DNA of 64,000 nucleotides from the IMG/VR virus record IMGVR_UViG_3300030385_001875, positions 905 to 64,904 of that record, one strand, 5' to 3'. This DNA is from a virus. Taxonomy: Duplodnaviria; Caudoviricetes. Position numbers and translations under genes: made by a program. Below, one piece after another: positions 49,201-61,570 of the stretch. Under the pieces are notes generated by a model. The model ran no database searches and was not told where the DNA came from. It saw only the letters and a list, made by a program, of their open reading frames with translations. Each line of letters opens with the position of its first letter. Position 1 is the first letter of the stretch.

Positions 49201-49974
49201 TCAAATGTTCTTCCATACGTTACGAAAGATGCAGACGGAAAAGCTGTCCTAACTGAAGAGAAGGATAGTAACGGTAACCGTATAGTTAAAGGTGACTACA
49301 CGCATCTCCAAAAACTTTCGCAAATAATTTCGAGAGGTGCGTTACGGATTTCAAATAAGACCCAGTTCAAAACAGAACCTATCGATCTTCCTCCATCGTA
49401 CACTGCATCTCCTCTGGGTAAACTGATGGGCCAGTTTACAACGTTCACCATCAAACAAGCACAGTTCACTAAAGATGCGCTTTGGAGAGATTGCAAGAAC
49501 TTCAGGAACGATCCGTTCGGTGTCCTACCTCCGATGTTGTCATTTCTAGTTGCAGCAGGAGGTTTGGGAATGGTGTCCAATATCATTGGTTCACTGTTCA
49601 ACGCTGATATAGACGAAGCTAAGAAATGGATCTATGAATCAAACGAAATTCAAAACCTTCTTGCACACTGGAACCGAGCAGCAGCGTTTGGAGCAATCTC
49701 CTACTTATTAGATGTAGGGAATATCCCGGGAGCAATAGGCGGGTTCTTTAGTATCCGTGCATTCGGCCTTGCTGAAAGGTTGTACAGGTATCCACAGAAA
49801 GCTCCGAGACTAATCCCTGTAGTTGGACCTGCAATACAAACAACTTTAGATAGAGGTTTCAAGGAAGGTTTCTGGGGAGGAGATGAAGATTACGGTACTC
49901 CTGCTATGAATCAGGTTATGGGAAGAAGAGGCCGAGGTGGGGGTAGAGGTAGAGGCAGAGACACACGGAGATAG
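37198..49974 (+). CDS. 4258-aa polyvalent injected protein: Strawberry-notch SF2 helicase + zincin metallopeptidase-like domain
   Basis: LSKVQLEAI, GHGTGSGKGR, FDEAH, VYATATAASE, YASRLGLWGEGT, AEATGR, AGATGQSYHA, QRVHY.LQPGW.AD..QGFGRTNR.DQ, RFSSVIAKRL; LAHEMGHAFH at about 45907. Confidence 0.85.
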   Translation: MATNKTTESLIFGGQTYSYKLPRDLTEEEQVRISSYTKTFPELEPLIQQRLNDKGADELMRFFDRLDTPENIIKSIKKVQSGEVSSERFYGDIAAGTQTGLAADQSLGGTLRAEATQRAPHLVKTFAKNSRDIMVNLKEDPVKFLKEIGWSMITSPIVIAAGGLETTGKLFSGDYATDPDWSWRPLTGTGEKGKGVGLAGALQFVPMLGAATRASRWARNLKGFSATTKAGKVMSGASIALGKAARFTPERAVGYKLSNTLADLPLAWRDALSTAGNLAEIDPLELVADLPFQLMLNAPQRIGLPTFARYIKKRQLRKQATQAATQAEAAAKDPTQVHRADITPENFDEEFSNLIDTITTMAEEKVGPKGVYTPYRDFLMNLGDQLTEMEMTPEGLTEARHLVDAAKEVIDELTTNVRSILENAEQHDQVQEMRRGQGWGEEEVKNGLSVVAATINQEIQRLTEAPFATKGTVTAEEAEGVKADNAKRLETLKDALGQISGFEPTLENLTLAERLMEFTIDPANVGYEGIGESITSVTEHLEELALGLLSNSMGQQAKSGEVLDDIFSDFPFEAYTDMSRFSNRPFRFITALDQMASEELGREATRAEKDAYTRRFAASLIKMAGALRNDGPTMTTLVNSVNIIREIIAGVFSTPERTQGLLETDVAYIPQGPAVVGKPYSGWNPPTEQEATQEVNEEDKDVEVEEEVEEKVEEEVEVEEKVEGDVEEPAPIHVSLDDILADDTVVADDTVEEVEEKEEVKPLTGKIAAEIDKFGGLDDMFSAAPSMADEELRSQTPLTDAQKEEKARQFALKIGVLLFKEKVNDFGEFLDSMVELLVKSPEDIRKLEIMKGPMVSTWGQLQGEAYGKGDTDFANSMTPLAEVAALVDKRMFDLTGEALEEGDEDESSDDAGPERTGAQGTRTGIQGDAEAGGGEATDGETVSGDRGETEGDPVIGDERVGEDIAVDPEPSPEEGPVEQPKQPIIQRIKDFFLTPVSQSDRRVQQELSEQKEHISYQAQDILTPDGEYAFANEDGTDAAHDHKAKLVTSSTLGMTVSPQITYIPEGLDTNVQVVTRDETGAIVKDAEGNPVSETKNIVRDGLLSKVQLEAIAVAGQTWLTRTYQGFRKAIMWGHGTGSGKGRMIAGAIVEAFSRVPSNGKRRALWITESKSLAETDAMRDWEALGQDPEMIFNFDKSKWDKKTANTTKRDEQGVTGNVVNFLPDEGVMTITYHSLGSGGGAISDILKNTNLSTEEMDRQIDEILQKKKGTQYHNLVTVLNWLTFGEKQRITSHKTMKDSHLKWKDFSGVIAFDEAHTMKKVGTGAGAGSNAMIALGLQHQTPESRIVYATATAASEVDNFRYASRLGLWGEGTEFDNADDFITHVGRTGVAGLEILTKDMKALGLYVAAQLSFEGVEVDPLHIELDDQEIERYNTFVKALDDGYKVLEQILADNRMNLSKNDITQMRSQWWGEHQRLVNSYQAGLVTSQMLDDFQNNYGSENYTPVFQMISTGETSFERSIDRLLSNPKYTDKNGNITIPQDENGNYILSEEMVNEIDITGKQDLIAQIDKMTDIRPWSVGPDGDKSISANRKDDLKADGQKYGAEIPAPIEDLVLIKARLMESLETVTLATMPLHSLIEHFGAENIAEATGRNRRLISRPKKGGAEGEREYIIERHGNKGKSSDILDFKNDDKEAIVFSIAGATGQSYHASNEYKNKRQRVHYVLQPGWEADKTMQGFGRTNRTDQASAPIYRILSTNLPSSKRFSSVIAKRLQMLGALSEGTQKAGAAEMFSGAESILLTQEGVQVLRNFIRDTWFRSTGTGWNPRSLANQEIINDYLINLQHEPEKTLVLSNPDGSLSKLQSLEVETGLDLTELAQIETDISLITQVYEAVAEQFDFANEAYNRMGLEWDIANQDEINSDPMTDPVYMPVLGGGTVDMSQWLNRMMTLPFGWQNSIFGLIAGRIQSEWDQALSLGIADTGIESVTAHKIKLNPKMEDVPIFTGTAAQTFAHQVDLELPQTETRLSGIVERLRNNLAEYRTFKGIFKDGDGQVMAAFASTVLEGEERKGKITAIYPSRKNDSALKVVGNNMSLFYLDGITQLISREEFLKNFVDGESVISPDWDGSPMMNTPFGQEGREGLQRGVEEWVNQLVDGYTKNAVGVPLPEGQTNKDAEGNPISLYKESRWYITGAHLPLWKKIMPKSTSRDKKNAPLPIIRRISLPFKDGTQERIAVEIASNKLFTTATAEVKAKAVMGAVTPKTKYMDKDAPHFEGVIDEATGIYHELTRWFDEASEKKVLVLTDGSVLVDYPYQSFDSESGQEATLHRIYLFSAKENPQVQNEINSSDNSFFVSEHAGLGFESEGRTDDFRKNVEWFKDKGFIIHAEEGQLVLPSSRHDAVKALANVLNEFYIDHGHIEGTVHKMFPASTLKASAYKPIYFDTLPSMETPPVGRVSEMMFDSIPQMLTSGFVVNDDLTGERKVLFNAGETKVGYPGHERNLNVDDLFANEEDIKWIEEKQPNIAELLFFEEMWDDVPPSGGFRDLSSGDPVSGGYLNSGVQHVSVHFLGGKTGTHLAEYGYMVTVYRPLQKNPETGEEIAHSVQSVIVPAYVSKDGTPKFLEENMSEMENLLGSNRHSENQPTTILKRFSGNLNIHPTSRTSRRVMQFLNIAMLQEKKRNMEHRAGPFDPTRTKRVFDHGDTGHEKTVYATESVPENLFNMAGRFAKVLGFHFGTNKHLAPTNLKDTQKVLWEDEAGKHKTHREIRQRPQTASKILIYTDVDSGEAASSWVEVDSIKDGQGTKYRNSLNIRMPSTYTRASTYDHHPDHAEAKITVSPATAARFRLKAYGSYWNIFSPLRGEDVMGKFTPNLGNSRTDGSICFRTQTAEDSTIDEPQQVMTLAHEMGHAFHYTVLDSLNWQFQEPLYHLFRKLHAKIGKEKWTEEMLIYAASNPQYAKDFLEALKAYDLPPDSLTDPDKVRAALIAEGERGGEYAQYLLSHVELFANQIAKWALDVGALDKDFQKASNSIDPDKRPFLAILKEVFKDIIKSLKKLYNEVLIALKVRFQGDSRSEGLEYLTVKPMVSFAEWMDNWVTRVEGHRETKRKTAGDVKRFFTWKKDDYNTLRILPEDPILPDEVKDDPRGKIEDHQIPKSVFGENGDANVFPQGLEQIDVARAMARRNISPAPDSDPARAEEIESMAMGTGDFVNKARNVMGEAWKKGWLPIEQKTGAGDFFFTMAVQLRNRGYGWMVDLIEEVRDNSQRKWGEANIKMLKGEAELQGGFWKGWYRKFGVYNIKGVGVPKKNQYMKDVMPLIRKFMETGYERTYNKGTKHERQFDEEGNRLLHPVVVGIDLKTAWGTLATSEQRRPAKTEKEAYQLLLAHISHVAEGKEEALLAPVLDIVAAWKENREELANKILEISATNKDMGKLGEKVDPDEELAELLMSIALGPANGNNPPAKAQLANLLNSNFGVSITPELIIREATKDNLIKRGVLFLVQDVANQYAVAYDNGKVIIYDHKRMRDPVWLYDGNLKIKSEWSPHKADYLPHMFDLEKLGMDNPASAKWKASVKAFMDANPDKNWDEAMAAQKLSSYIVNSRSNKFGNLEFTREYNIPWYEEDFFKITSIYLSRAWRRAYEIEAFGQNNEIYEEMMLDFASGQTDTRSVSPSLFKLNRQHKATRKLRDAMGFNTPWAQSLRGLIDNAMPLAAEQERGSKLYSTFFNPETGEPYHLNKDEPQFQYMSLRDWETLEEAGILNANRDNAGNIQSYNAVPETAHVVNALFEITPEGIDNDSIARKWIDRQIGSVHSSSEERRLDDLYKELKTAAAWAFLSRAWTSNISQPANAVRWTGMRSFLEAVRDIFKEQDRDWAAATGALTSDIAAFYSGGVFSADVLLRRWTPFQFIEAKINRQISALAGRNYLVVALKKFQKNPDAKELRRFTELDLVRLSDEELGALGATATEKDIDRAKAEKTKELLFDAIGENGVTEEEINIAKSFASNVLPYVTKDADGKAVLTEEKDSNGNRIVKGDYTHLQKLSQIISRGALRISNKTQFKTEPIDLPPSYTASPLGKLMGQFTTFTIKQAQFTKDALWRDCKNFRNDPFGVLPPMLSFLVAAGGLGMVSNIIGSLFNADIDEAKKWIYESNEIQNLLAHWNRAAAFGAISYLLDVGNIPGAIGGFFSIRAFGLAERLYRYPQKAPRLIPVVGPAIQTTLDRGFKEGFWGGDEDYGTPAMNQVMGRRGRGGGRGRGRDTRR

Positions 49975-50906: not shown

Positions 50907-51842
50907 ATGAATAACCTAGCATTGACAAATCAGGAATTGGTAAAACCGATATCAGTGCTCTTCAAGGACAGGGTTTATCCTATCCATGTCAAGTTTAACC
51001 CCGCTACTGTTTGTAATATTCGTTGCACTTTCTGCAATAATGATGATTATAATTATTTGAGTCCTGATGCTAAAAATCTGGCAAACATCCCAGATACCAT
51101 CAAGATGTTTAAAGGGTTGCGTGATCGTGGCACAAAGGCTGTTAGTATCGAAGGTGGTGGTGAGCCTACAGTTCATCCTGATTTCAACTTACTGGTTTCA
51201 TCATTGGCAGGTTTGGGTCTTGAGGTAGGGTTGTTAACCAATGGCACTCGATTAAAATCAATTGAGCCTGTGATGGGCTTGTTCACTTGGGTAAGGGTAA
51301 GTTTCTCTGATGAATATGAAGATATAACAGCAAATGACCTGACATTGGACCTAGTTCTGGATCAGGTCTCAAGCTGGATAAAAACTGAGCAGCAGGTCGA
51401 TATCAGTTTCAATTTCGTGGATATGGGGATCGATAACGTTATATGGGACGGGGTTGTTGAGTTCATAGCCGAACATCAGGGATACAGCAACTTCTTGGGG
51501 ATGAGGGTCTCACCTGATGATACTCAAGATAAAGGATTGACTAAAGAGTCTGATCTTGAAAGTGTTATCTTTACAGGGGGAGTAACTGAAGACACTCCCA
51601 TACCTAAAGGGGGTCGATGTAAGGTAGGGTTAGCCAGACCCGTGATAACCCCTAATCATACGGTATACGCTTGTTGTCGCCTGATGGAAGGGTTCAACTT
51701 CTCTGCACCTTATAAAGAAGACATCTTAACGATAATTGATAAGCAGATAGAATACACATGTTCTCTTACCGAATGCCCTTTCAACAGCTTAAGAGAGACC
51801 CTAAACAGTATTGACGAGGTGAGGCATCCGAATTTTGTTTGA
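50907..51842 (+). CDS. Radical SAM protein with SPASM/twitch-like C-terminus
   Basis: CNIRCTFC, EGGGEPTVHP, LLTNG, WVRVS; C..VYACC..C...C. Confidence 0.9.
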   Translation: MNNLALTNQELVKPISVLFKDRVYPIHVKFNPATVCNIRCTFCNNDDYNYLSPDAKNLANIPDTIKMFKGLRDRGTKAVSIEGGGEPTVHPDFNLLVSSLAGLGLEVGLLTNGTRLKSIEPVMGLFTWVRVSFSDEYEDITANDLTLDLVLDQVSSWIKTEQQVDISFNFVDMGIDNVIWDGVVEFIAEHQGYSNFLGMRVSPDDTQDKGLTKESDLESVIFTGGVTEDTPIPKGGRCKVGLARPVITPNHTVYACCRLMEGFNFSAPYKEDILTIIDKQIEYTCSLTECPFNSLRETLNSIDEVRHPNFV

Positions 51843-51851
51843 ATTCAAACG

Positions 51852-52832
51852 TTGAAAGGAATAGTTGCAGTTGTTCATGGGGAACCGCCCAACTCATATG
51901 ATAACCCTATGCCTGAACACCTTCTGGATCAAGTAAAGTTAGGCCCACAGGGAGCAACCGATCCTGCCACTAATCTTATGGATAGAGGGTTTACATATCA
52001 ATATCATAACTGGGAGATCTTACCACTTTTAGGGGAGGGTTATGAGTTCAGGAACATGTCTCTCGACAAAGTTCCTAACCATGTCATCGAGTATGCTTTT
52101 ATATATGTAGGCAATTTTCATCTAGAGACATCTTTGTCGTTCTTGTCCTCTGCTTTTGATTCTTGCCGTAATGTTTTTCTTTTTCACGATTTAAACTCTT
52201 TTTGGCTATTGTCTACAGCTCTTGTTTTTCTGGAAGAACATAAAGAAAAAATAACGGGGCTTATTGTTCAGAACCCTGATATAGTTAATGTTGTTGAAAA
52301 GGTAACTGGTATAAAAACTTTGGTAGCCGTAAGTACCACTGACGGATTGGAAGAGGATATCAAACAGGTACAAGAGCCAACTAAAGAGTTATTGGTTGCT
52401 GGAGGGCCAAATGAACGGGGTGGTATCGTTGGCAACACTTTTGCAGAATACCATTTCAAAGGCAATTATGATGTTATCCAAAGATACCCGCATGAACTCC
52501 CAAAAGTGTTAGATGGTTGTGCGAATTTTTATGAACATATGGAACTGGATGCTTGGCGAAAGTTTATTGTTGATTATAAATATATAATTGATGGTACAAA
52601 TGGGGGGTGTTCTTATGGTCGTGTAGGTTGGGATGCTTTTTGTTCGGGCCGTAGTTTTATTAGTGTTAAGAATAGAAGCTACGCATCTTACCTGTTTGAT
52701 GCCATCTCTATTAATTCTGAGGTTGACTTGGCTGACTGGGAAGATATTGGTTGGCAAGAGGCACATAAATTAGCCAAAGAACGGTTAGTCACTAAAGAAG
52801 ATCTACATGCTATGTGGTTACAGGTTCTTTAA
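51852..52832 (+). CDS. Probable glycosyltransferase-like protein
   Basis: C-terminal YKYIID..SYGRVGWDAFCSG resembles GT-B; cluster context. Confidence 0.4.
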   Translation: MKGIVAVVHGEPPNSYDNPMPEHLLDQVKLGPQGATDPATNLMDRGFTYQYHNWEILPLLGEGYEFRNMSLDKVPNHVIEYAFIYVGNFHLETSLSFLSSAFDSCRNVFLFHDLNSFWLLSTALVFLEEHKEKITGLIVQNPDIVNVVEKVTGIKTLVAVSTTDGLEEDIKQVQEPTKELLVAGGPNERGGIVGNTFAEYHFKGNYDVIQRYPHELPKVLDGCANFYEHMELDAWRKFIVDYKYIIDGTNGGCSYGRVGWDAFCSGRSFISVKNRSYASYLFDAISINSEVDLADWEDIGWQEAHKLAKERLVTKEDLHAMWLQVL

Positions 52833-52854
52833 ATAAAATACAGGAGATAGTAAT

Positions 52855-53496
52855 ATGGAAACGTTGACCGAGGTAAGGAATCACTGGGTTGAAAAGGGTT
52901 GGCATATTGGTAATCAGAAGTCGGGGATAGGTTATTTGGAGAATTTTTATGATAAGGTTTTCCCCCCATTAAGAGAAAATTGCAAAGCCTTATTGGAAAT
53001 AGGTGTTTGGCATGGAGGCAGTTTAGACCTATGGAGGGCATACTTTCCTGACGAAACTGAAATATATGGTATCGACAATCTCCCAGAAAACGTCCTCTAT
53101 CGTTCAGAGGTAGAGGGTCACCACCTCGAAGGTGATGAAATTAAAGGGGCAACGCTTATTGTAGGGGATGCTTATTCAGATGAAGTCGTGAACCAGCTTC
53201 AAGATAACTATTTTGATATTATTATAGACGATGGTAACCACGCATATACGTCTTGGGAAATCCTGATAGTCAAGTATTACCCTAAATTAAAGACTGGGGG
53301 AATAATGATTATTGAAGATCTGATGTCCACCCTCGATATTGGCTCCACGGAGAGGGAATCTTTAAAGGCTAAGGCAGAAGAGGTGGGATTTTCCTCTGTT
53401 GAAGAGCACGATATGAGTGGATTCGCCAATGGTGCACATTTTGATAATAACCCTATGCTTCAGGGGGAGACTTTTATATTAAAACTAGAAAAATAA
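52855..53496 (+). CDS. Class I SAM methyltransferase (Methyltransf_24-like)
   Basis: LLEIGVWHGGSLDLWRAYFP..IYGID, FDIIIDDGNH, LKTGGIMIIED. Confidence 0.9.
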   Translation: METLTEVRNHWVEKGWHIGNQKSGIGYLENFYDKVFPPLRENCKALLEIGVWHGGSLDLWRAYFPDETEIYGIDNLPENVLYRSEVEGHHLEGDEIKGATLIVGDAYSDEVVNQLQDNYFDIIIDDGNHAYTSWEILIVKYYPKLKTGGIMIIEDLMSTLDIGSTERESLKAKAEEVGFSSVEEHDMSGFANGAHFDNNPMLQGETFILKLEK

Positions 53497-54279
53497 ATGT
53501 TAAACCTCTGGAACTCTCAAACCCCCCAGACGATTATTATGACTTCAGCTATGTATACAGGGACAACTTTCCTGAGAGAACTTTTGATATCGATACCGCA
53601 CTTGGTAACAACCCTAACCAGAGACCTAGCCAATGACAAGTCGGGGCCTTTTTATTTGCAGGATTGCACAGGTAAGGTTTGGAATTCACCTCAAATTAAC
53701 TTAACTGATCTTAATAGCTATTTAACTAAACTGAAGAGAGGTAATGGCAAGATATTATTCCTAGAAGGGCATATCCATGAACATTGGATGCACAGTCTTG
53801 TCTTTTTTGTGACTTTTAATCATAAAGTCATATCCCCCATAAGACATCCATTTGATTCGTTGCTAACGAAATACCTGAGACAAGAACCTCATATCCTAAA
53901 TACTGACCCTTACGACAGGCATCCGGGTTGGCTTTGGTCTTACTTGCAGATCCTAGCCTTACAAAAGAATCGACCTAAAGATGTAGTTTTGGTTCCTGTT
54001 GATTTATTAGGTCAAAAACCTGAAGAGGAACGGGTAACCGAACTTGTTTCTTTGTTAGCTAGTATTGGTGTCAAGGTCAGTGAAAAGAAAAATCAGGAAT
54101 TTTACCAGTTAGCTAGGGAATGGAAACCAACAAACACTCACACTTCACAGTTTCAAGAAGAAAAGAGAGCAGTCAGCGATGAAGTGTATCAAGAAATTAC
54201 TGACAGGTTAGAGAAATCCAATGTTTACTACTATTTGGAACAAGCAGGGATTCATTACCCCATAAAAAAAAGACCCTAG
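53497..54279 (+). CDS. Sulfotransferase-like protein
   Basis: 5'-PSB-like TSAMYTGTTFLRELL and 3'-PB-like IRHPFDSLLT. Confidence 0.65.
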   Translation: MLNLWNSQTPQTIIMTSAMYTGTTFLRELLISIPHLVTTLTRDLANDKSGPFYLQDCTGKVWNSPQINLTDLNSYLTKLKRGNGKILFLEGHIHEHWMHSLVFFVTFNHKVISPIRHPFDSLLTKYLRQEPHILNTDPYDRHPGWLWSYLQILALQKNRPKDVVLVPVDLLGQKPEEERVTELVSLLASIGVKVSEKKNQEFYQLAREWKPTNTHTSQFQEEKRAVSDEVYQEITDRLEKSNVYYYLEQAGIHYPIKKRP

Positions 54280-54302
54280 TGAATGAGACTAGGATCTTTT
54301 TT
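54264..54302. terminator. Bidirectional terminator at the convergence of the two genome arms
   Basis: A8-GACCCTAGT-loop-ACTAGGATC-T6. Confidence 0.7.
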
Positions 54303-54387
54303 ATTGTTTGAAAATAACAAAGGAGAAGCAATATGAACGAGCGATGTCTGAAAACGCTATGACTGAAGCACACATTGCAACATAAAC

Positions 54388-54416
54388 AGTCTAACTCAAC
54401 AGAACAGTCTTGTCAA
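54388..54416 (-). promoter_or_regulatory. sigma70-like promoter pointing toward the 54264 terminator
   Basis: TTGACA (54416-54411), 17-nt spacer, TAGACT (54393-54388). Confidence 0.55.
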
Positions 54417-54421
54417 GAGTC

Positions 54422-54968
54422 GTATCGTTGTGTCCCGTCTCGTCGCATTGTTATGTTGTGGGATGTCGCATTGTGTTATGTCGCATTGTCCAGTAACGTC
54501 CTGATCCGTCCCGTCTCGTCGCAGTGTCAAGTGCAGTCCGGTCCCGTAAAGTCGCATTGTATTGTTTGGGCTAGTTTCGTACTGTATTGGTTACGTCGCA
54601 ATGGCAAGTCAAATAGCGTATAGTTTGGTCGCATTGTGATGTCAAGTGAAGTCTGGTCGGGTCCCGTCCAGTCGCATTGTCCCGTACAGTTGCGTTCTGT
54701 TTAGTCGCATTGTCAAGTCACGTTCGGGGTGAAGGCTCGTCCTGTCGCATTGTGAAGTCCTGTCGTGTCATGTCCAGTCCCGTCGCATTGTATCGTATTG
54801 TCCTGTCTTTGTCTGGTCATGTCGCATTGTACCGTATCGGTGCGTCAAGTCTTGTCGCATAATGTATCGTCGCATTGTTCGGTAGCGGATAAGTTAGGTC
54901 CTGTCGCATTGTTTCGTTTTGTTTTGTCCAGTAACGCCCTGTTTCGTTCCGTCGCATTGTAATGTAAT
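54422..54968. repeat. Pentamer-periodic array 1: (GT-NNN)n blocks punctuated by GTCGCATTGT; candidate guide-RNA array
   Basis: 16 motif copies (13 exact; variants at 54518, 54595, 54854). Start-to-start spacings 23,15,38,33,44,33,43,33,40,38,39,33,15,34,48. GT recurs every 5 nt between motifs. Confidence 0.92.
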
Positions 54969-54982
54969 TGAACTTTTTTCGT

Positions 54983-55020
54983 AAAAAAAAGCGATTTGGC
55001 GAATTTTTCGAGAATTGCTT
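54983..55020 (-). terminator. Terminator-like hairpin + U8 between the epimerase and array 1
   Basis: AAGCGATT...AATTGCTT stem with inner CGAA/TTCG; A8 run on the + strand. Confidence 0.5.
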
Positions 55021-55063
55021 CGTATAGGGTCGGAACAGGGGCTGTTAGAGTAGCCCCCACCCC

Positions 55064-55072
55064 ATTATAGCA
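55064..55072 (-). promoter_or_regulatory. Extended -10 promoter (TGnTATAAT) facing array 1
   Basis: Minus strand TG-C-TATAAT immediately after the epimerase stop. Confidence 0.5.
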
Positions 55073-55074
55073 CA

Positions 55075-56082
55075 TTAGCACCAATCGTGATAATCTTTGT
55101 ACCAATCCACGAAATTTTGTACCCCCACCTTAATAAAAGTGCGAGGTCGGTAAGTCGTCACTTCCTGCAATTTACTGATATCTGCATTGGTGAAACTGAT
55201 ATCTCCCAGTTGATAATCTGTTAGCTTGATTTTCAGCTTTTTCCCCGTTGCATCTTCAATCGCTTTCACAAAGTGATACTTACCCTGCCAATCCTCTGAA
55301 TAAAGCGGGACGGGATTGTTTGATCCCACGTTGAAGATATGATGATAAAATGGCCTTGGGTTTTCTATACCACTCAACCCTCGTTCCATCGCTAAGACCA
55401 AACCTTCTACCGCATCATCGACGTAGGTAAAGTCTCTGGCTTGGGAGCCAGACCCATACAACTCTACCTCTTCATCTTCAAGGATAGCTTTAGTGAATTT
55501 CCATAAAGCCATATCGGGTCTACCCCAAGGCCCGTAAACAGAAAATAACCTTAAACCTGTGCAAGGAATTCCGTACATGCGGGAATAAGCTTCTGCTGTC
55601 ACCTCGTTACTCTTCTTGGTAGCAGCATACAGCGAATAAGGGTGATCTGTGTTATCAGTTTCCTTGTACCCTGTGGATGTACTAACCCCATAAACACTTC
55701 CTGAAGAAGCGTACACCAAATGAGGTGTCGGGTTCATGTTTCGAGCAGTTTCCAGTACCGATTGGAAGCCTGTGATGTTAGGCAGGTATTCTTCAGGATG
55801 ATCGATTGAATGGCGAACACCCGCTTGTGCAGCAAGATGAATAATCACATCTATACCACGAAAAGTCAGGTCCTCTTTCTCCATCCCCACAACATCCATA
55901 TGTTTGAACTCGAATTTCCAGTTGTCCATCCATTCAAGATTACCGATCCTATCTTTTTTCAGCTTAACGTTATAGTAGTTATTGATGTTATCGATACCTA
56001 TAACGTTATGGTTATCGGATAACAATCTCTTAGTAACGTGATAACCAATAAACCCAGCGCAACCTGTAACTAGAATCTTCAT
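55075..56082 (-). CDS. NAD-dependent sugar epimerase (UDP-glucuronate 4-epimerase-like)
   Basis: VTGCAGFIG, HLAAQAGVR, YASSGSVYG, YAATKK, VYGPWGRPDMA, RDFTYVDD. Confidence 0.92.
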   Translation of the reverse strand: MKILVTGCAGFIGYHVTKRLLSDNHNVIGIDNINNYYNVKLKKDRIGNLEWMDNWKFEFKHMDVVGMEKEDLTFRGIDVIIHLAAQAGVRHSIDHPEEYLPNITGFQSVLETARNMNPTPHLVYASSGSVYGVSTSTGYKETDNTDHPYSLYAATKKSNEVTAEAYSRMYGIPCTGLRLFSVYGPWGRPDMALWKFTKAILEDEEVELYGSGSQARDFTYVDDAVEGLVLAMERGLSGIENPRPFYHHIFNVGSNNPVPLYSEDWQGKYHFVKAIEDATGKKLKIKLTDYQLGDISFTNADISKLQEVTTYRPRTFIKVGVQNFVDWYKDYHDWC

Positions 56083-56606
56083 CCCTTACCTCCTATCCTA
56101 CCTTTCCATTCACGTTTAGGGCTCCAGTCACCTGCAAAAAGGATGGTGAAATCCAGTAACCCTAATTTACTGATGGGAGAATCTTTTGAAAGAATTTCTG
56201 TCCCTCCATTGACAGCTAACGCTCGAGGTAAAATCCGAAAATATCCACCGTTACAGATAAGTTCTGATGTTTGAAGTTCCCCGAAAACGAAGCTAAAGTC
56301 TTTGTCCCAGACCCCCTCTTCAAGTTCCTCCCTGAGCAAGTCATAATTTTCGCCACATCCCAAAAAATCTTGGATATCGCAAATACCGAACACAAGCAGT
56401 TCATGTGAGCTTTGCGGAAAACTGACAGAAGCAGTAAACCTGCCTGAATCTAATGTCCCATCAAACTTTATTTTCAGGTCCATTAAAGCGACGCTTCGTT
56501 TCCCTTGCTCAAATAGCATCTCTGCAAAGTCTTTAGGGAACAAACTCAACTGCAAGGACTTTAACGATCCTGATTGGGATTTATTCGTCGATATCTTGAT
56601 CTCCAT
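56079..56606 (-). CDS. Hypothetical protein
   Basis: Likely start MEIKIS at 56606 (the track starts it at 56750); ATGA overlap with the epimerase. Confidence 0.5.
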   Translation of the reverse strand: MEIKISTNKSQSGSLKSLQLSLFPKDFAEMLFEQGKRSVALMDLKIKFDGTLDSGRFTASVSFPQSSHELLVFGICDIQDFLGCGENYDLLREELEEGVWDKDFSFVFGELQTSELICNGGYFRILPRALAVNGGTEILSKDSPISKLGLLDFTILFAGDWSPKREWKGRIGGKG

Positions 56607-57000
56607 CTTCTTCTTCCTTCCTTTTATAGTAAGCTTTCTGTTTACATGTATTAGAACAATACATCGCCCGTTTATGACGGGTCTCGAATCGTGCTCCGCA
56701 ATGAACACATGCTCTGCCGTCACCAAAGACGGCATCATCCCTGTTTTCATCTGTGATACGTTCTATCTTAAAGTTGCAGATACGCACGGGAGGATTCTCA
56801 GGGTGAGAAAACAGTCTCCCCTGATTGGCATTGAAAATCTCCAGCAAAGTCAAAGCTGGATCATCCGTTAAAACCTCCAGATTGATTATCAACCTTGCGT
56901 TAGAAGGAGTTCTGCTATGAGCTCCCGCTACCGCATTAAGATGCTGTTTGTTGGAATCAGTGTCCCGATCCCAATAGTGGATCACTTTTTCTCTAGGCAT
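56581..57000 (-). CDS. Zn-finger protein (CxxC...YCSxxCK)
   Basis: CVHCGARF..RAMYCSNTCKQKAYYKR; AAGGAG RBS before MPREK. Confidence 0.65.
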   Translation of the reverse strand: MPREKVIHYWDRDTDSNKQHLNAVAGAHSRTPSNARLIINLEVLTDDPALTLLEIFNANQGRLFSHPENPPVRICNFKIERITDENRDDAVFGDGRACVHCGARFETRHKRAMYCSNTCKQKAYYKRKEEEDGDQDIDE

Positions 57001-57553
57001 CTCCTTCACCCTCCTTTTCAATCCAATCTACCATCTCATTAAGTTCCTCAATCTCAAGTGATCGGACAGTATTTCTATGCATCTCCATAGCGTGTGCCTG
57101 AACCTTGTCGTTGGGAACACTCTTCTCCTTCATCTTTACCCGAAGCATCTCCAGTAAAGTTTCCCGTTTATCTTCCTGCACTTCACGGGCTTTGGTTTTG
57201 GATTCGATGCGTGACATCTCTTCCGCTGACGCATACTCGCTTCCGCTTAATCCCGCTGCTGCGAGTGCTCTCCCAATAGCAGATGTCTCACAATTTTCAG
57301 TATAAGAAGCGAAATTAACGTTCTGCTTGTTTGTCTTCTCGATGAACTCCAACGCATGACCCACAAAAACGTCAGGTTGTTCCTGATCCTTCTTATGGTG
57401 GGTTACCGTTGATTTCATCAAGATGAAGGTGTCGTTAAGTTCTTCAATCTCTGTCTCAACCGAAACTGAATCACCTTCATCCCTTTTCTCATGGAACATA
57501 ACCATCCGTTCCGCAACAGTACGATACTCTTTACCACGAATTTTGATAGGCAT
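56993..57553 (-). CDS. Probable ssDNA-annealing recombinase (Rad52/Sak/ERF-like)
   Basis: IRGKEYRTVAER, GHALE..NCETSAIGRALAAAG, YASAEEM. Confidence 0.65.
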   Translation of the reverse strand: MPIKIRGKEYRTVAERMVMFHEKRDEGDSVSVETEIEELNDTFILMKSTVTHHKKDQEQPDVFVGHALEFIEKTNKQNVNFASYTENCETSAIGRALAAAGLSGSEYASAEEMSRIESKTKAREVQEDKRETLLEMLRVKMKEKSVPNDKVQAHAMEMHRNTVRSLEIEELNEMVDWIEKEGEGDA

Positions 57554-57554
57554 C

Positions 57555-57755
57555 TCAATTCTCCTCCTCAGATTCTACGATTGTGTGACAGGCAACTTCC
57601 AGAAATCGCATATAAGGTCCAGTTAAAACTTGATAGTTCGTCTGGTCAATCTTCTTTTCGACTTCTTTAATCGCATCTTCCCTGTCACTAGCTTCTACCT
57701 CAAGTAATTGCTCCATCGTTAGCTGGAGCACCGCTACGTATTTATTTTTCTTCAT
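57555..57755 (-). CDS. Small DpnD/PcfM-like protein
   Basis: KYVAVL..LLEVEASDREDAIKEV; GAGGA RBS. Confidence 0.55.
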   Translation of the reverse strand: MKKNKYVAVLQLTMEQLLEVEASDREDAIKEVEKKIDQTNYQVLTGPYMRFLEVACHTIVESEEEN

Positions 57756-57787
57756 AAAACTTCCTCCTCTTACTTAATAATGGGCAC

Positions 57788-57834
57788 AAAAAAAGCGTGA
57801 AAACTAACCGTTTTAGAGGCTAATTTTCACGCTT
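57788..57834 (-). terminator. Terminator immediately 3' (minus strand) of array 2
   Basis: AAGCGTGAAAA/TTTTCACGCTT stem + U7. Confidence 0.7.
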
Positions 57835-57840
57835 ACCAAT

Positions 57841-58241
57841 GTCACGTTTTGTGAAGTGTCGTACCGTTCTGTTTGGTCGCATTGTAAAGTACAGTGGGGT
57901 TGCGTGACGTTCCGTCGCATTGTAGAGTACAGTGTCGTAAGGTTTCGTCGCATTGTTGGGTGTTGGAACAGAAAGTATCGTCATGTCGCATTGTCTTGTT
58001 ATGTGGTGTATCGTATTGTCATGTCGCATTGTTACGTACTGTTTTGTCGCATTGTATAGTATCGTCTTGTCGCATTGTGAAGTTTTGTCCAGACTGCGTT
58101 GCGTCTCAGCTTGTCGCATTGTAAAGACATGAGAGTAAGCCTAGGCGCACCTAGGCTTATCTTTCATCCGTTTTTAGGCTTACGTTACCTTACTCATGGT
58201 ATAGTATCGTCTTGTCCTGTCGCATTGTTACGTTTCGTCGT
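57841..58241. repeat. Pentamer-periodic array 2, same GTCGCATTGT punctuation
   Basis: 9 exact copies at 57876, 57914, 57947, 57985, 58023, 58046, 58069, 58113, 58219. Spacings 38,33,38,38,23,23,44,106. Blocks such as gt-aaa gt-aca gt-ggg gt-tgc gt-gac gt-tcc. Confidence 0.92.
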
Positions 58242-58252
58242 ATTTGGGTTTG

Positions 58253-58780
58253 TCAACGGTAATACGGTTTTTGCTCAGGGAACTGTGACGGGAGGTATCC
58301 TTTGAACACCTCCGCTGTTATTTTCCCTTCACAAAGAACTGAATTCAGATCACTAAAGCTTCCCCTACCGTTGAACCTAGGATTCAATTTCTGTTGCAAG
58401 GCATGTCGGTATCGATGGGCATCTTCAAGCGTCTTGAATTTCTTCTTTATCGCATGTTTCAAGACACCTGAGTTGTACCACCATCCACCTTCTTCCTTAC
58501 CTCCAAACAGACGGTCAGTATCGTAGATTCCTACCCAGTAGGTTCCTTCATCCCTCAAAAGATGACTACGCCAGACCGCACCGTCACTAATATGGTCAAC
58601 GTGGATTTCTGACTCAACAGTCTTACTACACCCTTCACAGATGTAGAGATGGTCTCCCTTAAAAAGGAAAAGCCCGTCTGTTTTGCTCTGGGGCTCATCC
58701 CACGGGATGTCTGCCAACGTATCACAGTCAACGCATTCGATAACCCGTCTCAACTGAGTCTTGTGTTTATGTTTGTTCAT
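58253..58780 (-). CDS. Hypothetical protein with N-terminal Zn finger
   Basis: AAGGAGG RBS before ATG58780 (the track's GTG lies inside a terminator); CVDC...CEGC; FGGKEEGGWWY. Confidence 0.65.
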   Translation of the reverse strand: MNKHKHKTQLRRVIECVDCDTLADIPWDEPQSKTDGLFLFKGDHLYICEGCSKTVESEIHVDHISDGAVWRSHLLRDEGTYWVGIYDTDRLFGGKEEGGWWYNSGVLKHAIKKKFKTLEDAHRYRHALQQKLNPRFNGRGSFSDLNSVLCEGKITAEVFKGYLPSQFPEQKPYYR

Positions 58781-58808
58781 TGTTATTTCCTCCTTTCTAT
58801 TTTTAGGC

Positions 58809-58848
58809 AAAAAAAAATGGGTGAGAACAGAACTCCCTGCTCTCACCC
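58809..58848 (-). terminator. Rho-independent terminator
   Basis: GGGTGAGA/TCTCACCC + U9. Confidence 0.75.
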
Positions 58849-58854
58849 TTGGTG

Positions 58855-59061
58855 CTAATCTTCTGCATCCAGCTTCTCTTCGATCCTACGGAGTTGGTCT
58901 AGCACACCGTCCAGCTTTCGATTTAAGAGACTGAATGCGCTATGGAGACCATATCCCTCACGGAGGTGTTCATTGACCCCTTGAAGCACTCCTCGATGCA
59001 AATGGTCTACCGTTAAAGGTTCCTTGTCTTTATCTTTGAACCATAAGTGTTCGGGTTCCAT
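58855..59061 (-). CDS. Hypothetical protein
   Basis: AAGGAG RBS; C-terminal coiled coil. Confidence 0.6.
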   Translation of the reverse strand: MEPEHLWFKDKDKEPLTVDHLHRGVLQGVNEHLREGYGLHSAFSLLNRKLDGVLDQLRRIEEKLDAED

Positions 59062-59072
59062 ATCTTCTCCTT

Positions 59073-59405
59073 CTAGTTGAATACTGCTTTTTCCTTTTTT
59101 CGGTCACCAACAATCGTCATCCCGAAAAAGACCAATGCTTCATCTGCGAAATCCTTTGCTGATGCTTGTATCTTCTCGCTTCCAATTTCACGAAGAAATT
59201 CTTGGTGATGCTTCAGCAAAACGTCTTCGTTTGCGTCCCAGAACATTTGGGATACTTCCTCAAACTCTTCATGCTTGAAGACGAACTTGCAAAGGTTCTT
59301 GAAGTTAGCAAGAGGTGGAGCCTCCCCCACCCTCGCTACTGCCCAGTTGACTGGGATCTTCAACATCGCATATTCCTCGTTGTCGAGTACATCAAATGGA
59401 TTCAT
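59073..59405 (-). CDS. Hypothetical protein downstream of the RAMP gene
   Basis: TAATG coupling to the upstream 32-aa ORF. Confidence 0.6.
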   Translation of the reverse strand: MNPFDVLDNEEYAMLKIPVNWAVARVGEAPPLANFKNLCKFVFKHEEFEEVSQMFWDANEDVLLKHHQEFLREIGSEKIQASAKDFADEALVFFGMTIVGDRKKEKAVFN

Positions 59406-59503
59406 TATTGTGCTCCCACGACAATAGACATTACTTTCAAAAAGACTAGCACCCCCATACTACCAGCTATCAGGGTGAAAATGTCTGCGAAGAATGTTTT
59501 CAT
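59405..59503 (-). CDS. 32-aa single-TM peptide coupled to the RAMP gene (not in the ORF track)
   Basis: MKTFFADIFTLIAGSMGVLVFLKVMSIVVGAQ; ATGA overlap with the RAMP stop. Confidence 0.55.
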   Translation of the reverse strand: MKTFFADIFTLIAGSMGVLVFLKVMSIVVGAQ

Positions 59504-60177
59504 TTTTTCGCTCCCCTCTTCTTCTTCGCAGGTGGATCTATTTCTTCAAACACTACTACGTCGAACTTCCCTTTCTCAAAGCTTCGTTGGGAGCCCAGCC
59601 CAACTTCCTGTCCCAACTCAAGGATTTCTTGCAGGTGCTCGGGGTTAATGTCTTTAGTGCCTTCCATCCTCACACTGAGACACCAGATTTGAAACTCAAG
59701 GGTTGGCTTGATAAGATACTCCGCACTCTTGAGGATTGACCGCATCCCTTGCATGGTCTGAACGTGACCAGCAAAGTCCTCGATACCGTCTTCCTTGGGT
59801 CGGAACGGTTGAAATATAATCTTCTCTTCCGTGAACTCCTCCCCAATCCGTCCCTTCACCGCTGTCCCTTCACGAAGCGTCTGCTTACTTCCCCTGAGAA
59901 GTACAGTTAGCTTCAGTAGGGAAATGCACTGCTTCATCATCGCCTTGACAGCGTAGTCTCCAATATATAAAGCGTCTCTTTCAGTGCATCGCTTGAAGCC
60001 TGTTCGTACCTTCTCCTCCTCCTCTTCCAGATCCAAATCAGTTTCCACAATGGAGGTATCCTCTGACCCGAATTTCGCTTCCACGTAATTCTTGACGAGC
60101 TCTTTCGATTTCGGGAGCCCACCGTAGATACGGTTGCGGAATTCCAGCTTCACATTAAACTTCCTGAATATACTCAT
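59500..60177 (-). CDS. Stand-alone Cas7/Csm3-like RAMP-fold protein
   Basis: beta1 FNVKLEFRNRIYGGLP; LYIGDYAVKAMMK (cf. Csm3 PYIPGSSLKG); SAEYLIKPTLEFQI; C-terminal Gly-loop GLGSQRSFEKGKFDV; 225 aa; AAAGGAG RBS. Confidence 0.75.
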   Translation of the reverse strand: MSIFRKFNVKLEFRNRIYGGLPKSKELVKNYVEAKFGSEDTSIVETDLDLEEEEEKVRTGFKRCTERDALYIGDYAVKAMMKQCISLLKLTVLLRGSKQTLREGTAVKGRIGEEFTEEKIIFQPFRPKEDGIEDFAGHVQTMQGMRSILKSAEYLIKPTLEFQIWCLSVRMEGTKDINPEHLQEILELGQEVGLGSQRSFEKGKFDVVVFEEIDPPAKKKRGAKK

Positions 60178-60707: not shown

Positions 60708-60989
60708 CTATATCAGGATAGTATTGTCACCCTTGACGGTAACCTTCTTAGCCTTGGGATCTACCTGACTGAATAGCAGTCCCATGCCGATAAATTCTTT
60801 CCTCTCTCGAGTGCTTTCAAAGCTATCGAAGTAGGTAACCGTTGAGGTATCTCCACCAAAGAGATCTGGAGTCCAATCCCCTGACCCAACACCTTTTTGA
60901 GGGTGTTGGCTGGGGTCTCCCTTGAAACACTCGAACTCCCACTTATCATTCTCAATGGTAGTCTTAAGCATGAACTTATTCATGTCCAT
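60708..60989 (-). CDS. Hypothetical protein
   Basis: AAAGGAGGTG RBS before MDMNK. Confidence 0.55.
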   Translation of the reverse strand: MDMNKFMLKTTIENDKWEFECFKGDPSQHPQKGVGSGDWTPDLFGGDTSTVTYFDSFESTRERKEFIGMGLLFSQVDPKAKKVTVKGDNTILI

Positions 60990-61003
60990 AATCTCACCTC
61001 CTT

Positions 61004-61570
61004 TCATATCATTTTCTTGTATCCTCGTTCTTCATAATCCTCCACCTCTGACTCCAGCACCAACTGTCGGCAAGGATGTGGTGCTGGGAGCAACACAGAT
61101 GTATGTTTGATATCTTCTTCCCCGTCAAAATCTTCTATGAATGCCACTTGATTCCTCGTTGTCGAGTTTATAAACTGGGTCTCCTTTCCTTCCTTGTCCC
61201 GCCTTCGTTTACTCGTGCTGATCATAGGCACGATTTCGATAGGCTCATCCACTGGGTTCCGCTTGAGTCGGTTCCTATCTGACGGTGATAATGCGTCAAA
61301 GTTCCTGATGAACTCCCGTACACCTTCTGAGTGACCGTAATCCACCCGCCTTGTGTCATCCTCGTAAGCGTCGTTCGTGTTGATCCGTTCCACTTGGGTG
61401 AAATGTACCCGCACATCCAACCAGCCAGTATACTCGTTGCCATCCCCCAACAAGAGAGCTTCTTTTTCGCTGTCTTTAAGACTGTCTTTCAATAGAAGTG
61501 CAATCGGACAGGATTTGCTGTTGTTGGTTTTCCCTTTGTCGAGATGAGTCCCTTCCATTTTGAGTCTCAT
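61004..61570 (-). CDS. Hypothetical protein
   Basis: AAAGGAG RBS; G..NNSKSCPIALLLK motif. Confidence 0.6.
   Translation of the reverse strand: MRLKMEGTHLDKGKTNNSKSCPIALLLKDSLKDSEKEALLLGDGNEYTGWLDVRVHFTQVERINTNDAYEDDTRRVDYGHSEGVREFIRNFDALSPSDRNRLKRNPVDEPIEIVPMISTSKRRRDKEGKETQFINSTTRNQVAFIEDFDGEEDIKHTSVLLPAPHPCRQLVLESEVEDYEERGYKKMI

What the first reader, a model, noticed from the sequence alone, without database searches (positions are those of the whole stretch)
54422..54968. Array 1: the 'spacers' are themselves periodic, with spacing quantised at 8+5n
16 GTCGCATTGT-like motifs. Nine of 15 intervals are exactly 8+5n (23, 33, 38, 43, 48) and the rest are 1-2 nt off. Example 54636-54670: gt-gat gt-caa gt-gaa gt-ctg gt-cgg gt-ccc gt-cca. 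All four bases occur in the variable positions, unlike a microsatellite, and the period of 5 is incompatible with codon structure. A 10-nt repeat is too short for CRISPR. Conserved phase with free variable content implies selection on an information-carrying scaffold. The transcribed strand is unresolved.
Basis: seen in the sequence. Interest (0 to 1): 0.88.

Follow-up and report, generated by a model that had tools for sequence, protein, structure and literature searches.

The report
Phage VIPR guide-RNA array, GU-NNN type
The five-base rhythm is real and marks a guide-RNA array of a VIPR system, a CRISPR-like phage weapon first described in 2026, here in a divergent form with two fixed and three free bases per unit.

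Summary
Array 1 (54406-54965) holds 16 GTCGC-type marks, and 9 of 15 intervals are 8+5n. GT recurs at lag 5 61 times, against 16.4 +/- 3.4 in shuffles. A second array in the same grammar lies at 57840-58238.

It is not an unknown kind of element. It is a vrRNA array of a VIPR system (Viral Interference Programmable Repeat; bioRxiv 10.64898/2026.04.26.720920, April 2026). In that system a lone Cas7-like Vipr protein polymerises one protomer per 5-nt unit, hides the fixed bases, and shows the variable bases for gapped pairing to the DNA of rival mobile elements.

The partner gene is the 225-aa ORF at 59500-60177 (-). Its model matches Cas7/Csm3 at Z 13.7. Its family profile matches, at 96.8% probability, a family that hits the solved SUSP1 Vipr at E 5e-23.

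In 24 of 38 related loci an array follows the vipr gene. The GT phase is kept (G 93%, T 88%) while the three other positions carry about 0.1 bit or less.

Differences from the type II reference:
- The scaffold is GU/NNN, not GGY/NN. This is the published 'YNNNG' variant.
- Guides are short, mostly 5-7 units.
- The end mark is 8 nt (GUCGCAUU) rather than a structured tail.
- The arrays are antisense to vipr.

The RNA strand (probably +) and the targets remain unproven. This scan has noted VIPR on other DNA many times (744 notes).

The parts
54406..54965 (+). vrRNA array 1. About 16 units of (GTNNN)n, each closed by GTCGCATT or a near-copy, with 62 in-phase pentamers. The strand given is the G-rich strand, inferred to be the RNA sense.
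57840..58238 (+). vrRNA array 2. Same grammar, 9 exact GTCGCATTGT and 42 in-phase pentamers. Six of 8 intervals are 8+5n.
58123..58198 (+). Insert of about 76 nt with a GC-rich hairpin that interrupts array 2 before its last unit. It is conserved in the 95% relative. Its role is unknown.
   Evidence: read from the sequence. The terminator scan did not list it.
59500..60177 (-). vipr gene: a 225-aa stand-alone Cas7-like RAMP with a G-rich loop near residues 193-204.
   Evidence: No Pfam or PHROG hit.
58253..59405 (-). Two ORFs (58253-58846, 197 aa; 59073-59405, 110 aa) between vipr and array 2. They are possible accessory (vap) genes, but no evidence supports this.
   Evidence: no informative family; not conserved next to vipr in relatives.
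57793..57834 (-). Intrinsic-terminator-like hairpin (17 pairs plus a T run) on the - strand, abutting the left end of array 2.
54275..54293 (+). Terminator-like hairpin that closes the + strand late genes, about 110 nt before array 1.

Best explanation
Arrays 1 and 2, together with the 225-aa gene at 59500-60177, form a VIPR system.

Shown here:
- The arrays are 5-nt tandem units with two fixed bases (G, T) and three free bases.
- The units are grouped into blocks of mostly 5-7 and closed by a conserved 8-nt mark, GTCGCA plus 2 nt.
- The neighbouring protein is a lone Cas7-like RAMP related to solved Vipr.
- Gene and array travel together in relatives, while guide content turns over by whole units.

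Inferred from the published type II mechanism:
- The array is transcribed, most likely the G-rich + strand, giving (GUNNN)n-GUCGCAUU units.
- It is cut or used as short vrRNAs.
- Vipr protomers bind one per pentamer in a helical filament and sequester the fixed bases. By the published notation 'YNNNG' these are G2 and Y3, with G1 free.
- The filament presents the variable bases for gapped pairing to double-stranded DNA of competing phages or satellites, and silences them.

The short mark takes the place of the structured 3' tail, as in the published 'staggered' tail-less arrays.
For: Protein:
- The AlphaFold model has pLDDT 82.3 and pTM 0.78.
- Foldseek top hits are all Cas7/Csm3/Cmr4, with E 1.4e-7 and lower-ranked. 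VIA-align gives Z 13.7 over 172-174 residues to type VII Cas7 and Csm3.
- hhalign of its family (A1, 31 sequences) against a family of array-adjacent phage proteins (A2, phrog_4652) gives probability 96.8% and E 2.2e-10 over 134 columns, including the G-loop.
- A2 hits PDB 36pp 'SUSP1 Vipr protein' at E 5.4e-23.

Co-occurrence:
- Of 45 loci with diverse GTNNN arrays, 29 carry a phrog_4652 ORF within 4 kb, and 3 more carry the window's family.
- Of 38 loci encoding the window's family, 24 have an array. In every one it lies downstream of vipr with the G-rich strand antisense.

Grammar across the clade:
- 214 of 270 GTCGC intervals are 8+5n, with modes at 38, 33 and 43 nt.
- Over 884 pentamers, G is 93% and T 88%. 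Positions 3-5 carry 0.11, 0.02 and 0.08 bit.

Literature:
- 10.64898/2026.04.26.720920 (Results and Methods sections read) describes vrRNAs, one protomer per repeat, the alternative repeats NNNGG, YNNNG and NNNNG, and staggered arrays.
- 10.64898/2026.10.21.760802 (passages read) lists WGT/NN among non-canonical motifs.

Strand:
- Distant relatives (L294, L295, L299) have GG-NNN pentamers in phase with the same GTCGC/GTCTC mark, on the same strand relative to vipr. Mapped vrRNAs carry the G motif.
Against: - No RNA data: the transcribed strand, the unit ends and expression are all untested.
- A strong - strand terminator sits directly after array 2 in the - sense. All arrays of this clade are antisense to vipr if the G-rich strand is the RNA. 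Canonical loci such as L188, L215 and L264 have array and vipr on one strand.
- The promoter scan found no + strand promoter before either array, and its total (8 sites) was no higher than in shuffles (9.4).
- The family profile A1 alone finds no solved structure by sequence, so the link to Vipr is transitive.
- No accessory vap gene was recognised.
- No target was found. Real guides scored no better than shuffled guides.
- The canonical GGY scaffold and the structured tail are absent.
Confidence: 0.88

Rival explanations
1. Same VIPR system, but the RNA is the - strand, co-directional with vipr and the early operon. The units would read (NNNAC)n after an 8-nt AAUGCGAC-type mark, so the fixed bases would be A and C.
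For: - Array 2 lies inside the - strand operon, and a 17-pair terminator with a T run follows it in the - sense.
- In 24 of 24 clade loci with an array, the array lies just downstream of vipr, which is where co-transcription would put it.
- GAC/NN and CAC/NN motifs are listed as non-canonical VIPR units in 10.64898/2026.10.21.760802 (passages only; how that paper assigned the strand was not seen).
Against: - In the 59-63% relatives, a terminator-like hairpin stands between the vipr stop and the array in the vipr sense (read from the sequence).
- Distant relatives would then have a CC-based scaffold, whereas every mapped vrRNA has G.
- GTC-type arrays occur in both orientations relative to vipr (L264 and L161 same strand; L179 and L239 opposite). 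Orientation to vipr is therefore not a guide to the RNA strand.
Confidence: 0.2
2. The arrays work mainly as decoy or solo guides that redirect the Vipr of competing phages, rather than arming this phage's own Vipr.
For: - Solo vrRNAs with that role are described in 10.64898/2026.10.15.759431 (abstract and section 17 read).
- Array 1 lies 4.5 kb from vipr, behind unrelated cargo genes.
Against: - The phage has an intact vipr of the matching clade.
- The same end mark is shared by arrays next to vipr in all close relatives.
Confidence: 0.05
3. A double-stranded DNA site array (origin iterons, a packaging or partition site, or a run of primase GTN sites) read by a DNA-binding protein, not an RNA.
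For: - The arrays sit at the switch of gene strands and GC skew.
- They are strand-asymmetric.
- The phage has a DUF3854/Toprim-like 1194-aa protein.
Against: - The arrays co-occur with a Cas7-like RAMP across unrelated phages.
- Hypervariable content between near-identical phages is not expected of iterons.
- A 5-bp step with free triplets has no known DNA-site counterpart (my own knowledge).
Confidence: 0.03
4. Neutral slippage product of one ancestral pentamer (a decaying microsatellite).
For: None beyond the 5-nt period. True pentamer microsatellites do exist among the scan hits, for example L213 and L216 with a single pentamer type.
Against: - 61 of 64 triplets are used, while the GT phase is kept at 88-93% over 884 pentamers in diverged loci.
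- A conserved 8-nt mark recurs at quantised spacing.
- A protein partner is linked to the arrays.
Confidence: 0.01

Closest known systems
VIPR type II system of Escherichia phage SUSP1 (Vipr plus vrRNA; bioRxiv 10.64898/2026.04.26.720920 and .720927; PDB 36pp)
   Same: - A lone minimal RAMP.
- 5-nt tandem units with fixed scaffold bases and hypervariable bases.
- Phage-borne, with several guides in arrays.
- One protomer per repeat in the published mechanism.
   Different: - The scaffold is GU plus three free bases instead of GGY plus two.
- Guides are mostly 5-7 units, not 9-16.
- The end mark is 8 nt instead of a pseudoknotted tail of a roughly 100-nt RNA.
- The arrays are antisense to vipr and split by cargo genes.
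- The protein is so diverged that only profile-profile and fold comparison link it.
- No vap gene was recognised.
Published non-canonical VIPR arrays: 'YNNNG' and 'NNNGG' repeats and 'staggered' tail-less arrays (10.64898/2026.04.26.720920, Methods and the legend of fig. S18), and WGT/NN units (10.64898/2026.10.21.760802)
   Same: - The GU-NNN unit is the YNNNG pattern read cyclically.
- Units abut without long tails.
- A Vipr-like fold lies next to the array.
   Different: I could see only the text and legends, not the figures or tables. Whether this clade, its GUCGCA mark or its orientation is among those shown is unknown.
Class 1 CRISPR Cas7 backbone on crRNA (Csm3, Cmr4, type VII Cas7)
   Same: - The fold matches (Z 13.7).
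- Periodic protein binding along a guide.
- A short fixed tag next to a variable guide of about 25-40 nt.
   Different: - The period is 5, not 6.
- There are no repeats of 23 nt or more.
- No other cas family appeared among the ORFs tested.
- The fixed bases lie inside the guide.
TRAP on trp leader RNA (recalled from general knowledge, not tested)
   Same: A protein oligomer reads a short fixed motif repeated about every 5 nt in RNA.
   Different: TRAP is a closed ring with 11 fixed sites, carries no variable information, and has an unrelated fold.

Membership tests
VIPR system | A stand-alone minimal RAMP (Vipr: RRM core, G-loop, thumb) encoded near the array | tested here: met
   The model has pLDDT 82.3. 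Cas7/Csm3 are the top matches, at E 1.4e-7 and Z 13.7. The G-loop is invariant at G193, R198 and G203. The gene lies 1.26 kb from array 2.
VIPR system | Sequence relationship to an experimentally defined Vipr | tested here: met
   The link is transitive. A1 against A2 by hhalign gives 96.8% and E 2.2e-10. A2 against PDB 36pp SUSP1 Vipr gives E 5.4e-23. A1 searched directly against PDB sequences found nothing at E<=1.
VIPR system | Tandem 5-nt units with conserved scaffold bases alternating with hypervariable bases | tested here: met
VIPR system | Canonical GGY/NN unit | tested here: not met
   The unit is G(93%) T(88%) N N N. The base before G is free: in array 1 it is T 20, C 20, A 15, G 7 of 62. 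This fits the published alternative 'YNNNG'.
VIPR system | Repeat tract followed by an invariant structured 3' tail (type II) | tested here: not met
   Only an 8-nt mark, GTCGCA plus 2 nt, separates the tracts. There is no Rfam family in 54100-58400. The published staggered arrays also lack tails (legend).
VIPR system | Array and vipr co-inherited in relatives | tested here: met
   24 of 38 loci of the family have an array downstream of vipr. Twelve of the 14 without one are contigs of 3 kb or less.
VIPR system | Accessory vap gene beside vipr | tested here: inconclusive
   No family was found for the ORFs at 58253-58846, 59073-59405, 60708-61570. The roughly 200-aa ORF upstream of vipr in 8 relatives has no match in the window.
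VIPR system | vrRNAs expressed and bound by Vipr | not testable with these tools
   No RNA run was listed.
VIPR system | Guides match rival mobile elements by a gapped (1-nt skip) rule | tested here: inconclusive
   138 guides were run against 0.30 Mb and 2.68 Mb of held DNA under four read-outs and two periods. Real guides did no better than shuffled guides. The database is tiny, so the test has little power.
CRISPR array | Direct repeats of about 23-50 nt separated by unique spacers, with cas1/cas2 or effector genes | tested here: not met
   The fixed mark is 8-10 nt and the 'spacers' are themselves periodic. No cas family other than the lone RAMP appeared among the 29 window ORFs scanned. 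A full cas search was not run.

The most novel reading that the evidence does not exclude
In this Vipr clade each protomer may read all three free bases of its GU-NNN unit (3 paired, 2 sequestered) instead of two. That would place it between the VIPR code (2 paired of 5) and the Cas7 code (5 paired of 6).

Grounds:
- All three positions are equally information-free (0.11, 0.02, 0.08 bit).
- Guides are only 5-7 units long. Two read bases per unit would give 10-14 specifying bases. In my own control, 58-65 of 138 shuffled guides found perfect two-of-three matches in 2.7 Mb.
- Three read bases per unit give 15-21 specifying bases, close to the canonical 18-32.
- The protein sits very close to Csm3 and type VII Cas7 in fold (Z 13.7).

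Nothing here tests this directly. The stop-codon hint that seemed to support it vanished under a first-order null.
Probability: 0.22. Interest if true: 0.7.

Novelty: new member of a known kind. Interest (0 to 1): 0.36.

Why it matters
VIPR is a months-old class, and only type II has been worked out by experiment. This locus gives a complete 65-kb marine phage with a diverged Vipr and 22 or more short guides. Its scaffold has only two fixed bases and an 8-nt end mark.

Relatives give a natural series, from GG-NNN to GU-NNN with the same mark, for asking how the protein reads its scaffold and how many bases per unit specify the target. The whole-unit turnover between 95% identical phages shows that the guide set evolves fast, as expected of a weapon between competing elements.

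As a finding of the scan it is a correct blind rediscovery, not a new kind of system.

Tried and rejected
Searches that found nothing:
- BLAST of the array and of 50-60 kb against INPHARED phages gave no match.
- A motif-plus-two-pentamer scan of IMG/VR returned 118 stretches, almost all single chance hits. Only L095 and L096 were real. A stricter pattern returned 21 stretches, again with only L095 and L096 holding several matches, and L140 weakly.
- RNA evidence: no RNA holder was listed.
- Rfam at E<=1 over 54100-58400 gave only two sub-threshold hits outside the arrays.

Tests that did not help:
- The promoter scan was not above shuffles.
- The target search was negative and underpowered.
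- Codon idea: triplets whose reverse complement is a stop looked depleted (15 observed against 34 expected). Under a first-order expectation this becomes 15 against 20.7 (P 0.12), and TA depletion explains it. Correlation with the phage's codon usage was weak (best rho 0.28).
- vap search: no conserved partner was found.
- I mapped the SUSP1 G1/G2/Y3-contact residues onto the window's G-loop (S-Q-R in place of D-W-R). The GG-type relatives do not keep D-W-R either, so I draw no register from it.

Ideas dropped once the Vipr link appeared: primase GTN sites, a TRAP-like ring, Chi-like protection, iterons or a pac site, and a likeness of the - strand mark to a crRNA tag (recalled only).

Not seen: the supplementary figures, tables and data of all four preprints. 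These may already show this clade, its motif logo or its type.

Full report
WHAT IS THERE

The window is bases 905-64904 of a 64,904-nt virus record that CheckV rates complete. Late genes sit on the + strand: terminase 8912, portal 10692 and major head protein 13914. An early arm sits on the - strand from about 55 kb on.

The region 54406-54965 lies between the terminator of the + strand genes and the stop of a - strand epimerase gene. Read on the + strand, it is a string of five-base pieces that begin with GT, broken at intervals by GTCGCATT.

- There are 16 GTCGC marks, 13 of them exact GTCGCATTGT.
- Nine of 15 intervals equal 8+5n, and the other six are 1-2 nt off.
- GT recurs at lag 5 61 times, against 16.4 +/- 3.4 (max 29) in 1000 dinucleotide-preserving shuffles.
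- No other 300-nt window outside the two arrays exceeds 4 such steps, against 36 here.
- A second array with 9 exact marks lies at 57840-58238 on the same strand.
- All 22 exact marks are on the + strand and none on the - strand.

HOW THE IDENTITY WAS FOUND

Many hits were not microsatellites. Forty-five loci, counting the window and its relatives, held arrays with many different pentamers and their own end marks. Clustering the ORFs within 4 kb of these arrays gave one dominant family of about 200 aa. It was present at 29 of the 45 loci, and the window's 225-aa ORF (59500-60177, - strand) grouped with the array-adjacent ORFs of L096 and L140.

The dominant family is phrog_4652, annotated 'unknown function'. 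A profile of 15 members hits one solved structure, PDB 36pp 'SUSP1 Vipr protein', at E 5.4e-23.

That name led to four 2026 preprints. I read the following:
- 10.64898/2026.04.26.720920: the Results, Methods sections 18 and 20, and passages that include supplementary figure legends.
- 10.64898/2026.04.26.720927: sections 5 and 6.
- 10.64898/2026.10.15.759431: the abstract and section 17.
- 10.64898/2026.10.21.760802: passages only.

They describe VIPR as follows. A lone ancestral RAMP protein, Vipr, polymerises along a vrRNA made of 5-nt units, one protomer per unit. It sequesters the fixed GGY and exposes the NN bases. Those bases pair with double-stranded DNA while skipping every third target base, and this silences rival phages and satellites.

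The papers also list alternative units (NNNGG, YNNNG, NNNNG; WGT/NN, TGH/NN, GAC/NN, CAC/NN). They mention 'staggered' arrays, in which the end of one vrRNA is the start of the next.

IS THE WINDOW'S LOCUS A MEMBER?

The protein:
- The 225-aa ORF has no Pfam or PHROG hit, but it has 30 homologues in metagenomes.
- With that alignment AlphaFold gives pLDDT 82.3 and pTM 0.78.
- Foldseek against the PDB returns only Cas7-family chains at the top, at E 1.4e-7. VIA-align gives Z 13.7 over 172-174 residues to type VII Cas7 and Csm3.
- Profile-profile comparison with the phrog_4652 group gives 96.8% probability and E 2.2e-10 over 134 columns, ending in the shared G-rich loop.
- The direct profile search of PDB sequences found nothing, so the link to solved Vipr is transitive.

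Context:
- Scans of IMG/VR and metagenome contigs gave 38 loci that encode the family.
- Twenty-four of them hold a pentamer array. Each array lies downstream of vipr with the G-rich strand antisense to the gene.
- Twelve of the 14 loci without an array are contigs of 3 kb or less. L296 and L298 have room for an array but none was detected.

THE GRAMMAR OF THIS CLADE

Over 13 array segments, some from near-duplicate contigs, 214 of 270 GTCGC-to-GTCGC intervals are 8+5n. The modes are 38 nt (77 intervals), 33 nt (63) and 43 nt (29), so most blocks hold 5-7 free pentamers.

In 154 distinct in-phase units (884 pentamers):
- Position 1 is G in 93% and position 2 is T in 88%.
- Positions 3-5 carry 0.11, 0.02 and 0.08 bit, and 61 of 64 triplets are used.
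- The mark is GTCGC (by construction), then A (95%), then two weakly conserved bases.

Read cyclically, this is the published 'YNNNG' unit: the canonical G2 and Y3 are kept and G1 is free.

More distant relatives (26-31% protein identity: L294, L295, L299) have GG-NNN pentamers in phase with the same GTCGC/GTCTC-type mark. The mark is therefore older than the GU scaffold.

TURNOVER

The TARA scaffold L268 carries both arrays identically.

The phage behind L266/L095 has a 95% identical Vipr and near-identical flanks, yet it shares only 3 pieces of array 1. Those are the degenerate ones of 23, 15 and 44 nt. The rest are different in-phase units. One of its array-1 units equals a unit of the window's array 2.

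Only 2 of the window's 15 in-phase units recur in other loci.

WHICH STRAND?

For the + (G-rich) strand:
- Every mapped vrRNA carries the G motif.
- The GG relatives place it on this same strand relative to vipr and to the mark.
- GTC-type arrays of the phrog_4652 group occur in both orientations to their vipr, so gene orientation is not decisive.
- In the 59-63% relatives a terminator-like hairpin separates the vipr stop from the array in the vipr sense (read by eye).

For the - strand:
- Array 2 is embedded in the - strand operon, and a 17-pair terminator follows it in that sense.
- No + strand promoter was predicted before either array. The scan as a whole was also no better than shuffles.

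No RNA run could be listed. I put the + strand at about 0.75-0.8.

TARGETS AND CODE

I built target strings inside scripts only. I scored 138 guides against 0.30 Mb (the window plus relatives) and 2.68 Mb (all held loci). I used target periods of 3 and 4 and four read-outs. Real guides never beat guides with shuffled unit order. The database is far too small to call this evidence.

One by-product matters. With two read bases per unit, 58-65 of 138 shuffled guides still found perfect matches in 2.7 Mb. Such short guides would therefore be poorly specific unless the third free base also counts. That is the basis of the bolder reading, and nothing here tests it.

A hint that triplets avoid reverse-complement stop codons disappeared once TA depletion was allowed for.

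VERDICT

The element belongs to a class in print since April 2026.

It is a new and diverged member rather than a new kind. It has a GU-NNN scaffold, short guides, an 8-nt mark, arrays antisense to vipr and split by cargo genes, and no recognisable vap. The scan's own index shows 744 earlier notes that mention VIPR in at least 476 genomes.

Noticed in passing
IMG/VR loci L146-L265 (for example L188, L215, L179, L262, L264, L190): Diverse pentamer arrays are common in viral contigs, each clade with its own fixed bases and end mark: GGT-NN with a 13-nt or roughly 27-nt mark, GTC-NN, GTT-NN. Besides phrog_4652 (29 loci), two small families recur beside the arrays: phrog_15946 (11 loci) and phrog_5926-like (5 and 4 loci). 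These are candidate accessory genes.
   Followed up: partly
L304-L312 (nine Candidatus Poribacteria genome contigs): Homologues of the window's Vipr at 48-50% identity sit in bacterial chromosomes between ABC-2 transporter genes. No pentamer array was detected within 5 kb. Only a short degenerate stretch ending in a GTCGCC-type mark lies next to the gene's 3' end in L307. This may be a solo or domesticated copy.
   Followed up: partly
L294, L295, L299: Distant relatives of the window's Vipr use GG-NNN pentamers but the same GTCGC/GTCTC-type end mark. In L299 the base before GG is mostly a pyrimidine.
   Followed up: partly
window 57876-57913 and L266 array-1 homologue: An identical 38-nt unit sits in array 2 of the window and in array 1 of the 95% relative, so units move between arrays.
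   Followed up: no
window 50907-56082: A radical SAM gene (50907), a methyltransferase (52855) and an NAD-dependent sugar epimerase/dehydratase (55075-56082, - strand) flank array 1. The relative L095 has a shorter gap between its arrays (2039 against 2925 nt), so the cargo between the arrays differs.
   Followed up: no
window 50-3634 and 37198-49974: A 1194-aa protein with a DUF3854 (Toprim-like) domain has no PHROG hit. A 4258-aa ORF follows the internal-virion transglycosylase gene.
   Followed up: no
window 54264-54416, - strand: A near-consensus promoter (10 of 12 matches) at 54416-54388 fires away from array 1 towards the terminator at 54293-54275. The only Rfam match is sub-threshold (ncr1015, 29.8 bits against a gathering score of 60).
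   Followed up: no
L268 (TARA scaffold, 14,263 nt): A marine metagenome scaffold carries vipr and both arrays 100% identical to the window.
   Followed up: yes
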